Source of the DNA: Paraspadella gotoi
Lineage: Eukaryota; Animalia; Chaetognatha
Direction: 5' to 3'
NCBI GenBank assembly: GCA_051294375.1
Contig: CM119270.1
Span: 4,844,152 to 4,908,151 of the forward strand
DNA length: 64,000 nucleotides
The notes beneath the pieces are model-generated. The model worked only from the letters and a program-made list of their open reading frames with translations. It made no database searches and was not told where the DNA came from. Both the position numbers and the translations under genes were made by a program. Numbering within the stretch: the first letter of the stretch is position 1; every line of letters begins with the position of its first letter. Of this stretch, positions 26,825 to 29,800 are shown one piece after another.

Positions 26825-29800
26825 ATGGGGGAGAACTTTTCTGATCGGTACGCGATGCCCCCTCTGCTCCCGGGTCAACTTCCCGTCAAAATCATCTATT
26901 GGCACAACGGAACTAAAGTAAGGGGGGAAACCACCGCCATTTTTATTCCTCGTTTTAAATAGTTATTCTCATTCAAAACTTAAGAAATCGAATTTGATTA
27001 ATTAATTAACAAAAGATTAAAAATATTCATTTATCAATATATCAATCAATCTATCCCTGTAGTCGGGCATTGCCTAGGTTCACCCCGCCTAGAATCATGA
27101 CACTTTCAGTTGTGACCCGGTGGCTCATTGAGTAAAGCCATCAGCTCATGACCACTAGGTACCGGGTTCAATCCCAACCCGGTACCTACCCTGCGGGAAG
27201 CGTGAGGACGGCCGTAAGCCGCCTTGGGGGCATGGCAAACCCTCAAGCCTGGTTCCAAGCCCAGGGACCCGTTCCATGGCTGCTAGAGGGGGTTAAAGAA
27301 GTTACGGACAGTCATCTTCAGCCCACGTAGCGCCTTATCCACATCCTTCTATTAATTATTCCATCAATCAATCATACCATGATTCCATCGAACAACCTAT
27401 GAACTAGAATCAATCAATACATTGATTCATTAATTAATCATTTCGTTAATCGACTAATCAATCTATATATCAATCGATCGATCAATCAATTTCTCAATTT
27501 CTTAGGTCATCAACGAGACGTACCCCGACGGGATTGTGTTGGAGTGGGGGCGAAGCTGCGAGTCCTGGCTCCTCCTTCCCGCAGAGAACTTATGGCCGCT
27601 CTGGCTCAGAGCCCTTCTCTATTTCATGGCCATGGCGTGAGTTTTTGATTTAAATCAATTAAGATGAGAATTTCCAATCTGTTAGCGGAAAAGGTTTTAC
27701 GAGACGGAGAAGGAAGAGGAGGAGGAGGAGGAAGAGGAGAAATCTCGATGGAAATTTCAGGCATTGTAATGAATTTAATGAAATTGGTACAATCAATATA
27801 AAAAAAATTAATTCAGTTTAATTTAAATAAATTTAATTTAAGTGCCCATGACGTCTGCCTTTTTCATTTATTCTTTAATCTCGGAAGAGAAATTTGTTCT
27901 ACCGTCGTTTTACAGGTACATGTTCGTGGGCGTGGCGATCGCTTCGGATTTGTTCATGTGCGCCATCGAAGTCATCACGTCCAAGAAGAAAAAAATCACG
28001 ATCTACGACGAGCAGAAGCAGGAGTACGTCGATAGAGAGGTAAAAATCAGGAGAGGGGAAGTGAAAAGAGAAATTTTAAAATGTGAGAAAGGACGAATGA
28101 AAAAGAAAGAAAAGTAAAGAAAGACGGTTAGGAATGTGGACTATAAAATAGAAAGAAACTTAAAAGAGGACAAAATAAATGAAATTTAAAAAAGGGGGAA
28201 GTATTGAATAAAAAAAAAACCCCGAAACTAAGTTAAGCTGCGTTACAAAGAGAATTACACATTGAAAAGAAAAGTTAAGGAAATAAAAGAAAAGAAAAAA
28301 AAGGAAAGAGACAATAAATATAAGAAAAGAAAAGAAAAGAAAAGAAAAGAAAAGAAAAGAAAAGAAAAGAAAAGAAAAGAAAAGAAAAGAAAAGAAAATA
28401 AATGGATAATTTTTATATTGGTTGTGTAGTCGGGCATTGAGTAAAGCCATCAGCTCATGACCACTAGGTACCGGGTTCAATCCCAACCCGTACCTACCCT
28501 GCGGGAAGCGTGAGGACGGCCGTAAGCCGCCTTGGGGGTGTGGCAACCCCTCAAGCCTGGTTCCAAGCCCAGGACCCGTTCCATAGCTACTAAAGGGGTT
28601 ATAGAAGTTACGGATAGTCATCTTCAGCCCACTTAGCGCCTTATCCACACTGGTGAGCCATCCTGTCGAGCGTATTCCAACCTTCTGATTCCAGGCCCAT
28701 GGACGTGCTGAAGATTGCTCCCCTCCCTCCACTGGAAGCAGTGCAGGGTGGGTTACAATCTGGGGGCATGTAGTCGGCATTGCCTAGGTTCACCCCGCCT
28801 ATAAGCATGACACCTTCAGTCCTGACCGGTGGCTCATTGAGTAAAGCCATCAGCTCATGACCACTAGGTACCCCGGGTTCAATCCAACCCGGTACCTACC
28901 CTGCGGGAAGCGTGAGGACGGCCGTAAGCCGCCTTGGGGCGTGGCAACCCCTCAAGCCTGGTTCCAAGCCCAGGACCCGTTCCATAGCTACTAAAGGGGG
29001 TCATAGAAGTTACGGATAGTCCTCTTCAGCCCACTTAGCGCCTTATCCACAGTTGTACCAATTTCATAAAAAGAAAAGAAATAAAAAGTTCCTTTAAACC
29101 GTCCCCCCCACCCAACGACTCTCCCCTTAATAATCCCCTCCTCATATAAACAAAGGTGCTGGTGTGGAACGAGACCGTGGCCAACTTGACGTTGATGGCG
29201 CTGGGGTCGTCGGCGCCGGAGATTCTCCTCGCCATCATCGAGACGATCATGAAGTTGGGGAAGCCTCCCAACCCGGCTGAAGACGGACTCGGGGTCTTCA
29301 CCATCGTGGGTTCAGCCTCTTACAATCTCCTCGTCATATCTGCCATCTGCGTCATGTCTGTTCCATCTGGAGAAGCCAAGAGGTGATGGTCTTGTCGTGT
29401 CGTTTACGTCATGTCATGTCATGGCATGTCGTGGAAGTTGCGAGAAGTTGTTGGGATCGATTTCGCTCTTAAACGTTATTTCCATATATCTCCGTATATA
29501 AATATAAAAATATTCATATGGAATATGTAAAACCATTATAAAATTATATGTACATATATAAATCATTTGTAGTATGTACATATATATCTAAATTCCATTT
29601 CATGACCTAAATTCCGACACTCACCCTCGCCTCCCACCCTCCCCACTTTCCCGTCCTCCAGAATCCGGGAATTCGGCGTCTTCATGTGGACGAGCGTGTG
29701 GAGCATCTTCGCCTACTTGTGGATGTTTTTGGTTGTGGAGTATCTCTCTCCAGGAATTATCAACATCATTGAGGCTTTCGTCACTCTCCTTTTCTTTCCC

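What the first reader, a model, noticed from the sequence alone, without database searches (positions are those of the whole stretch)
28425..29051. Candidate twister-ribozyme LTR retrozyme: a 627-bp non-coding LTR element with a self-cleaving motif and a tRNA-like head in its LTRs
Seen: two TG..CA direct repeats, a perfect 4-bp TSD (GTTG), a PBS-like TGGTGAGCCATCCTG one base after the 5' LTR, a G-tract before the 3' LTR, a 119-bp non-coding interior and a solo LTR 1.4 kb upstream. Each LTR carries a type-P5 twister-like fold. Complete LTRs have A-box/B-box sequences (TGGCTCATTGAG..GGTTCAATCC) just upstream of it; the 5' LTR has lost part of the A-box. Established: plant retrozymes are non-autonomous Ty3/gypsy-dependent elements with 4-bp TSDs, PBS, PPT and a hammerhead in each LTR, producing monomeric/circular RNA. 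Animal retrozymes I know of are non-LTR hammerhead tandems, and Cassandra TRIMs carry Pol III (5S) promoters in their LTRs. Inference: cleavage at 28523/4 and 28925/6 would release a 402-nt monomer, i.e. retrozyme logic using twister in an animal LTR element. I do not know of a described equivalent.
Basis: partly seen in the sequence, partly recalled or inferred. Interest (0 to 1): 0.92.

Follow-up and report, generated by a model that had tools for sequence, protein, structure and literature searches.

The report
Twister-ribozyme miniature LTR retrotransposon
A small, gene-less, high-copy jumping element in a likely animal genome carries in each end repeat a tRNA-like head and a twister-ribozyme core that is predicted to cut when the two repeats pair, which would release a 402-base RNA as plant retrozymes do with a different ribozyme; cutting is untested.

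Summary
The anatomy is confirmed: two LTRs (3 substitutions in 223 columns), 4-bp TSD, PBS, G-tract, 119-bp interior and a solo LTR, all sense in introns of a Na/Ca-exchanger gene. Public runs show a high-copy family with fixed ends.

Each LTR holds a type-P5 twister core with catalytic bases, both pseudoknots and P4 intact (1 of 100,000 shuffles), but below Rfam's cut-off. P1 has collapsed to a 6-base palindrome and P2 is weak. One copy alone is predicted to misfold; a strand-swapped pair of the two LTRs is about 10 kcal/mol better, like dimeric amphibian hammerheads.

Two published wasp Helenus LTRs carry, by eye, an unremarked type III hammerhead at the same place, so ribozyme-bearing Helenus may have arisen twice. 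Against: no cleavage or RNA data, and the predicted circle is no more folded than shuffles.

The scan earlier noted palindrome-armed twisters in Naiad elements and many Helenus TRIMs, never the two together. My ten literature searches found no twister in an LTR. Verdict: new variant of a known kind, interest 0.72.

The parts
28421..28424 (+). left target-site duplication (GTTG)
28425..28649 (+). 5' LTR, with a 58-base deletion that removes the start of the tRNA-like head and half the A box
28474..28483 (+). B box of the 5' LTR
28501..28579 (+). type-P5 twister-like motif of the 5' LTR; palindromic P1 28517-28522; predicted cut 28523/28524; P4/L4 28556-28573
28651..28664 (+). primer-binding-site-like sequence starting TGG one base after the LTR; primer tRNA not identified
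   Evidence: (tables 5c, 7)
28650..28768 (+). 119-bp non-coding interior
28762..28766 (+). short G-tract (PPT-like), two bases before the 3' LTR; one G longer in many family copies
   Evidence: table 4
28769..29051 (+). complete 3' LTR
28830..28885 (+). tRNA-like head of the 3' LTR: A box 28830-28841, anticodon-loop-like 28854-28860, B box 28876-28885
28903..28980 (+). type-P5 twister-like motif of the 3' LTR; GAGGA 28914-28918; palindromic P1 28919-28924; predicted cut 28925/28926; P4/L4 28957-28974
29052..29055 (+). right target-site duplication (GTTG)
28524..28925 (+). predicted 402-nt unit RNA between the two cut sites
   Evidence: prediction only
27058..27343 (+). solo LTR of the same family: A box 27121-27132, B box 27165-27174, twister-like motif 27193-27272; flanks match 3 of 4
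29158..29383 (+). host-gene exon downstream of the element (Na/Ca exchanger); element and solo LTR lie sense in its introns

Best explanation
This is a young copy of a high-copy, non-coding Helenus-type miniature LTR retrotransposon whose LTRs each carry a twister-ribozyme core that is predicted to cut as a strand-swapped pair of the two LTRs, which would release a unit-length RNA of about 400 bases that is likely circularised and copied by a borrowed, probably gypsy-type, reverse transcriptase. Shown: the anatomy, the multi-copy family with fixed ends, the intact twister core, the palindromic P1. Inferred from Helenus and Cassandra: RNA polymerase III starts at the tRNA-like head in the 5' LTR and meets no run of four T in the element. 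Predicted from folding: once both LTRs are transcribed the two palindromes pair into one 6-bp P1 and two active sites form, so two-LTR transcripts would be cut better than solo-LTR transcripts. Inferred from retrozymes: double cutting leaves 5'-OH and cyclic-phosphate ends and no terminal repeat, so a host tRNA ligase would close the circle and tRNA priming at the PBS would rebuild both LTRs. This copy has lost its own 5' promoter start but would still be read sense inside the host pre-mRNA.
For: Anatomy and TSD. Family: 126 contigs with unrelated flanks before the LTR start and 103 behind its end in run X2, and LTR-end-to-PBS joints with varied letters. Twister core 1 of 100,000 shuffles; top 3 of 9 hits of a model built from phage P5 twisters, 23 bits against 14.7 for the next (partly circular). 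The changed pseudoknot pair (A-U) is a natural covariant: 87 G-C, 42 A-U, no mismatch in 129 natural P5 twisters; a 3-bp P2 occurs in 67 of 129. Frequent family variants avoid the 34 core bases: 0 of 25 visible LTR places in X1, 0 of 29 in X2 (P 0.03 and 0.02); the three places in or beside stems keep the fold. Swapped dimer costs 14.6 kcal/mol over the free fold against 24.4 for two monomers. Axolotl hammerheads with one base pair capped by a palindromic tetraloop cut poorly alone and well as dimers, and RtcB circularises the products (PMC7229834). Twisters tolerate P1 and P2 defects but not pseudoknot or catalytic changes (PMC11662667). Two wasp Helenus LTRs carry a hammerhead at the same place, read by eye.
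Against: No cleavage, transcript or circle was observed. Rfam score 17 bits against 37.6. Even the dimer sites lie 7.3-7.4 kcal/mol above the free fold, against a median of 3.5 and a 90th percentile of 6.0 for natural twisters; a competing hairpin masks the catalytic strands (pseudoknot energy not modelled). P2 has a U-G pair and a bulge. The predicted circle is 64% paired, z = -1.0 against shuffles, whereas retrozyme RNAs are reported above 70% paired (PMC4918200). The variant test is weak: 26 rows of the table were not shown, and if both hidden X1 places fall in the core P rises to 0.32; no compensatory change inside the family was seen. Lack of a T4 run is common by chance (2,976 of 5,000 shuffles). 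No autonomous partner among 148 of 199 window frames scanned.
Confidence: 0.45

Rival explanations
1. The twister is a dead or nearly dead passenger. The LTR captured a tRNA-headed, ribozyme-bearing SINE-like or Penelope-derived piece; P1 and P2 decayed in the founder, and the family spread by ordinary TRIM replication. The intact core reflects the family's youth.
For: Monomer fold gap 10.0-10.3 kcal/mol, reached by 1 of 129 natural twisters; below Rfam cut-off; exact palindrome linker in 0 viral contigs; circle not unusually folded. Kojima proposes that Helenus LTRs arose by SINE insertion.
Against: The defects sit in the two stems that twisters tolerate, while all sensitive positions are intact. 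The P1 remnant is a perfect palindrome. Frequent variants avoid the core (weak). A second ribozyme class sits at the same place in wasp Helenus.
Confidence: 0.25
2. The ribozyme works mainly as a 3'-end maker in place of the oligo-T terminator. Useful transcripts are cut in the 3' LTR only, keep about 100 bases of terminal repeat, and are copied by the ordinary linear LTR route without a circle.
For: No T4 run in the element or the solo LTR. By eye, 39 of 41 wasp Helenus LTR consensuses have a run of four or more T just after the tRNA-like head, and the two without are the hammerhead carriers. Inner and outer dimer sites can form separately at equal cost. The circle is not unusually structured.
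Against: T4 absence is likely by chance. Fish and several bivalve Helenus lack the T-run and show no ribozyme by eye. The two wasp elements have T4 runs in their interiors. Nothing predicts that the 5' site is spared.
Confidence: 0.2
3. Each LTR ribozyme cuts on its own, with a one-pair P1, because P1 is dispensable and the pseudoknots with Mg outweigh the competing hairpin; the rest is as in plant retrozymes.
For: P1 is reported dispensable and P2 defects tolerated (PMC11662667; PMC8501958). P4 and P5 are well predicted in a single copy.
Against: Predicted P2 pairing probability 0.0 and a 10 kcal/mol gap in all three copies; the palindrome would be unexplained.
Confidence: 0.1

Closest known systems
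Helenus TRIMs (TRIMp3), Kojima 2024, PMC10886601 (read: main text parts 1-4 of 6; supplement parts 1 and 5-11 of 11, parts 2-4 only through searches)
   Same: Short non-coding element, two LTRs with a tRNA-like A/B-box head, PBS, PPT, 4-bp TSD as in animal families; sizes in range; many more LTRs than interiors.
   Different: A twister core follows the head. The paper's text names no ribozyme in Helenus, and none of 13 hits of the twister loop motif in its data file lies in a twister context (line breaks could hide one). PBS type not among those listed. Two of its wasp families (Helenus-2_SyJa, Helenus-2_SyUm) carry an unremarked hammerhead by my reading.
Plant LTR retrozymes, Cervera et al. 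2016, PMC4918200 (passages read); review PMC7761336 (passages)
   Same: Ribozyme in each LTR, non-coding interior, PBS, PPT, 4-bp TSD, solo LTRs, unit RNA without terminal repeat, ribozyme predicted in a blocked fold.
   Different: Type III hammerhead, tRNA-Met primer, 600-1000 nt highly paired circles, plants; no tRNA-type head described. Here: twister, about 400 nt, not unusually paired, likely animal, RNA not observed.
Type-P5 twister ribozyme (Rfam RF02684); tolerance data in PMC11662667 (sections 32 and 38 read)
   Same: Strand order, cleavage triplet, general-base strand, both pseudoknots, P4/L4; P3 insert and 3-bp P2 occur naturally.
   Different: P1 is a loopless 6-base palindrome; P2 has a wobble and a bulge; 17 bits against 37.6.
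Dimeric hammerheads of amphibian non-LTR retrozymes, PMC7229834 (section 15 and passages read); Penelope-associated dimeric hammerheads (title seen in reference lists only)
   Same: One base pair capped by a palindromic tetraloop in the helix beside the cut site; tandem copies complete each other.
   Different: Hammerhead, tandem repeats without LTR, PBS or PPT, linked to Penelope elements (bioRxiv 10.64898/2026.07.22.740005, abstract and passages read).
Twister T-variants of Schistosoma Perere-3, PMC8501958 (abstract, sections 17 and 19 read)
   Same: Twister with a weak P1 serving a retrotransposon in an animal.
   Different: Type-P1 order, one copy at the 5' end of an autonomous non-LTR element; no LTR, PBS or unit-length RNA.

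Membership tests
Helenus (TRIMp3) | short non-coding element with two LTRs | tested here: met
   627 bp, LTRs 225/283 bp, 119-bp interior, no Pfam hit in frames over it
Helenus (TRIMp3) | tRNA-like sequence in the LTR with A and B boxes | tested here: met
   TRGCY and GGTTC motifs present; the YGG that most families have is absent; degenerate cloverleaf only at ARAGORN threshold 70 in the solo LTR, none at default
Helenus (TRIMp3) | 4-bp TSD (animal families) | tested here: met
   1 of 1 full element perfect; solo LTR 3 of 4 bases; other copies' TSDs not visible
Helenus (TRIMp3) | PBS and PPT at the ends of the interior | tested here: met
   TGG start one base after the LTR, seen also in other copies; short G-tract. 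Primer tRNA not identified
Helenus (TRIMp3) | RNA polymerase III transcription | not testable with these tools
   also unvalidated for published Helenus
Helenus (TRIMp3) | mobilisation by a gypsy element with the same PBS | tested here: inconclusive
   no retroelement domain in 148 of 199 window frames; no genome held
Type-P5 twister ribozyme | catalytic A and G, L1 and L4 conserved bases | tested here: met
   3 of 3 copies against the layout in PMC8501958 Table 1
Type-P5 twister ribozyme | two pseudoknots | tested here: met
   both pair fully; the A-U variant is seen in 42 of 129 natural P5 twisters
Type-P5 twister ribozyme | P4 hairpin | tested here: met
   5 bp, pairing probability 0.63-1.0
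Type-P5 twister ribozyme | P2 helix of 3-4 bp | tested here: inconclusive
   U-G, G-C, bulge, G-C; probability 0.0 in single-copy folds; family variants keep or improve it
Type-P5 twister ribozyme | P1 closed as a hairpin | tested here: not met
   6-base palindrome, one pair at most within a copy, 6 bp between copies; P1 is reported dispensable
Type-P5 twister ribozyme | Rfam RF02684 gathering score | tested here: not met
   16.8-17.3 bits against 37.6; 18 of 20 benchmark loci pass
Type-P5 twister ribozyme | site-specific self-cleavage | not testable with these tools
   needs in vitro assay
LTR retrozyme (plant type) | type III hammerhead in each LTR | tested here: not met
   no hammerhead match up to E 10; the motif is twister-like
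LTR retrozyme (plant type) | LTRs, PBS, PPT, 4-bp TSD, no coding region | tested here: met
LTR retrozyme (plant type) | highly self-paired unit RNA | tested here: not met
   64% paired, z -1.0 circular, -0.8 linear, 150 shuffles each
LTR retrozyme (plant type) | unit-length linear and circular RNA in cells | not testable with these tools
   only contigs were available, which show no RNA ends or circles

The most novel reading that the evidence does not exclude
Animals have true LTR retrozymes: tRNA-headed miniature LTR retrotransposons that independently recruited different self-cleaving ribozymes (a twister here, a type III hammerhead in Synergus wasps) at the same LTR position to make a circular replication intermediate. 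This family does it with a natural dimeric twister, which forms only when both LTRs are in one transcript and so selects full-length elements over the far more numerous solo LTRs.
Probability: 0.35. Interest if true: 0.87.

Novelty: new variant of a known kind. Interest (0 to 1): 0.72.

Why it matters
Published retrozymes split into plant LTR types and animal non-LTR types, both with hammerheads. A twister in the LTRs of an animal TRIM would break both rules, and the wasp hammerhead case suggests that self-cleavage, not the ribozyme class, is what is selected. It gives a concrete job to a eukaryotic twister and a cheap test of whether LTR elements in animals can replicate through an RNA circle. 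A strand-swapped twister pair was not found in my searches and could be useful as a two-copy switch. Both window copies lie sense in host introns, so activity would also cut host pre-mRNA. If the ribozyme is dead, this is one more Helenus family.

Tried and rejected
No whole genome is held, so copies and their TSDs could not be counted directly. Rfam at gathering score: nothing in the window. A metagenome scan with an exact 19-base motif gave 1 locus, L001, a chance match at the start of a bacterial reading frame with no P4; rejected. The palindrome-linker pattern gave 0 viral contigs.

Expression: no RNA holder listed. Run X9 is only guessed to be RNA, holds many genomic flanks and was seen as contigs only, so nothing is drawn from it. 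Summed contig depth was used only as an order of magnitude.

Type-P1 twister within one LTR: no second general-base strand downstream of P4 (by eye); rejected. ARAGORN's relaxed tRNA-Tyr call over the twister region is taken as a chance overlay on its stems. The window's tRNA-Val does not match the PBS. 'Ribozyme replaces terminator' as a rule for all Helenus: rejected.

Of 215 pattern matches in phage and prokaryote loci, 86 were dropped before the benchmark for lacking a full P2 or a P1 of 4 bp; that filter cannot show natural short-P1 forms. Host phylum: one exon gave 61-76% identity across many marine invertebrates and also a bicosoecid; unresolved. The wasp hammerhead was read by eye and not folded or scored.

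Full report
Observation. The element is as described. The 5' LTR is 28425-28649, the interior 28650-28768 and the 3' LTR 28769-29051, with GTTG on both sides. The LTRs differ at 3 of 223 aligned columns plus small homopolymer indels, so the insertion is young. The 5' LTR lacks 58 bases between two CATTG copies, which removes the start of the tRNA-like head. A solo LTR lies at 27058-27343 with flanks matching at 3 of 4 bases. Both lie sense in introns of a Na/Ca-exchanger gene (Pfam PF01699 and PF03160; splice contexts). One exon is 61-76% identical to exchangers of many marine invertebrates and 69% to a bicosoecid protein, so 'animal' is inferred and the phylum is open. No retroelement domain was found in 148 of 199 filtered window frames.

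Family. No genome is held, so I laid contigs of four public runs on the interior and 3' LTR (at most three samples, one of which may be the window's source). In run X2, 126 contigs run on into unrelated sequence before the LTR start and 103 behind its end; X5 gives 78 before the start. Several contigs join the LTR end to PBS-like variants. Summed depth over the LTR reaches about a million in X2, where the listed long contigs have depth 43-128, and is several times higher than over the interior. The tool warns that this is no copy number; I take it only as showing a family of probably thousands of copies, mostly solo LTRs, with fixed ends.

What kind of element. Kojima 2024 (PMC10886601; main text parts 1-4 of 6 read) defines Helenus as TRIMs with a tRNA-like sequence in the LTR, PBS, PPT and, in animals, 4-bp TSDs, probably mobilised by gypsy elements. 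The complete LTRs here have the TRGCY A-box and GGTTC B-box motifs but not the common YGG. ARAGORN draws a degenerate cloverleaf at LTR positions 57-129 only at a relaxed threshold. The element therefore files as Helenus-type.

The twister. Rfam gives Twister-P5 in each LTR at 16.8-17.3 bits against a cut-off of 37.6. Against the published layout (PMC8501958 Table 1) every sensitive part is present: the UAA cleavage triplet, the GAGGA general-base strand, both pseudoknots, the eight-base L4 loop and a 5-bp P4, with P3 and a closing P5. A descriptor of this layout, written after seeing the motif, hits the three LTRs and nothing else in the window, and 1 of 100,000 shuffled LTRs. For a benchmark I collected pattern matches from phage and prokaryote contigs: 215 distinct matches, of which 129 with full P2 and a P1 of at least 4 bp were kept; 18 of 20 loci tested pass Rfam's cut-off. 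In the 129, the variable pseudoknot pair is G-C in 87 and A-U in 42 with no mismatch, so the A-U here is a natural covariant; 67 have a 3-bp P2. A model built from 50 of these loci ranks the three LTRs first of 9 hits (23 bits, E about 1e-4; next 14.7 bits), a partly circular test.

Two defects. P1 is the loopless palindrome CGGCCG, and P2 holds a wobble and a bulge. Alone, each copy prefers a hairpin that masks the catalytic strands: the twister fold lies 10.0-10.3 kcal/mol above the best fold, a gap reached by 1 of 129 natural twisters (median 3.5; pseudoknots not modelled). In the two-LTR transcript a fully nested strand-swapped pair is possible, sharing a 6-bp P1. It costs 14.6 kcal/mol for two sites against 24.4 for two monomers, but 7.3 per site is still above the natural 90th percentile of 6.0. 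The precedent is exact in form: axolotl hammerheads with one base pair capped by a palindromic tetraloop cut 6% alone and far better as dimers, and RtcB circularises the product (PMC7229834). A screen of about 1,900 natural twisters found P1 and P2 defects tolerated and pseudoknot or catalytic changes harmful (PMC11662667); the defects here fall in the tolerated class.

Selection. In one search the per-run tallies let me count what is visible: 30 of 32 variant places at 4% or more in X1 and 36 of 43 in X2. Of those in the LTR, 0 of 25 (X1) and 0 of 29 (X2) fall in the 34 core and palindrome bases (P 0.03 and 0.02); the lists include places beside an alignment break and letters peculiar to this copy. 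If both hidden X1 places were in the core, P would be 0.32. The stem-side variants keep the fold: 28904 gives a wobble in P5, 28911 is the P2 bulge, 28928 turns U-G into U-A. This is suggestive only.

A second case in print, unremarked. Kojima's text mentions no ribozyme in Helenus and no twister loop motif in context turned up in the data file. But the LTRs of Helenus-2_SyJa and Helenus-2_SyUm (Synergus wasps, probably one event) carry just after the B box what reads by eye as a complete type III hammerhead: GUC triplet, both core motifs, three stems and complementary loops. A search for Synergus with hammerhead returned only that paper. By eye, 39 of 41 wasp Helenus LTRs have a run of four or more T after the head, and these two are the exceptions. 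The window's element has no such run either. That pattern is limited: 2,976 of 5,000 shuffles also lack one, fish and several bivalve Helenus lack it with no ribozyme visible, and the wasp interiors hold T4 runs.

Mechanism. Most likely (0.45): polymerase III starts at the head of the 5' LTR (inferred), the two LTR motifs pair and cut (predicted), the 402-nt unit has no terminal repeat and is circularised by a host ligase, then tRNA-primed reverse transcription by a gypsy enzyme rebuilds both LTRs (inferred from PMC4918200). Against the circle: it is 64% paired and no more stable than shuffles (z -1.0). Rivals: a dead passenger (0.25), a 3'-end maker for a linear template (0.2), monomeric cutting (0.1). 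No RNA evidence exists either way.

Novelty. Ten full-text searches found no twister in an LTR element, no animal LTR retrozyme and no dimeric twister. Reviews place twisters in RTE/Perere non-LTR elements and LTR retrozymes in plants (passages in PMC7761336, PMC6765202, PMC5680766, PMC9695139, PMC10085705 and bioRxiv 10.64898/2026.07.22.740005). The library lacks most subscription papers and Repbase, and bioRxiv supplements are closed. This scan's own notes hold 130 Helenus findings and several palindrome-armed P5 twisters in Naiad elements, but none with both and no look-alike sequence; they are unchecked leads, and my dimer idea was noted before I saw them. Verdict: it is a Helenus-type TRIM, it is not a member of the hammerhead-defined retrozymes or of Rfam's Twister-P5, and it plausibly works like a retrozyme with a twister. 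New variant of a known kind; interest 0.72.

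Noticed in passing
PMC10886601 Data S1, Helenus-2_SyJa-LTR and Helenus-2_SyUm-LTR: Complete-looking type III hammerhead just after the tRNA-like head, with about 12 complementary bases between loops 1 and 2; not mentioned in the paper. 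Type III is the plant-retrozyme form. Read by eye only.
   Followed up: partly
window 29005-29051 against the same two wasp LTRs: Two short motifs in the LTR tail after the ribozyme look alike in the window's element and the wasp hammerhead carriers; seen by eye, may be chance.
   Followed up: no
window 28761-28770 and 27225-27234: The ten bases across the G-tract and 3' LTR start recur exactly in the P3 strand of the solo LTR's twister motif.
   Followed up: no
run X9, records 28 and 32: Two diverged LTR contigs at depth 127 and 90 where the other listed contigs have 4-9: a diverged subfamily in that sample.
   Followed up: no
window 26827-39834 +: Multi-exon Na/Ca exchanger gene with Calx-beta domains, of a type matched best in marine invertebrates; an 86-base unit holding an exon end is repeated at 34795-35343.
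   Followed up: partly
window 16002-20534: Foldback-like element with long inverted arms (80-95% complementary) around an 18-base minisatellite; related 18-base and 52-base repeats recur at 60077-61590.
   Followed up: no
window 22225-23085: 50-base tandem array.
   Followed up: no
window 57391-57598 and 57888-58095: 208-base direct repeat, 88% identical, 497 bases apart.
   Followed up: no
window 31472-31545 -: tRNA-Val(CAC) gene inside the exchanger gene, opposite strand.
   Followed up: partly
window 48116-50908 -, 43521-43748 -, 59222-59476 -, 63639-63899 -: Exons of a protein kinase, an LDL-receptor class A domain and EF-hand proteins.
   Followed up: no
L005, L061, L069, L216 and others: Clusters of two to five type-P5 twisters a few hundred bases apart in phage and prokaryote contigs; many have a 3-bp P2 or a P3 insert.
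   Followed up: partly
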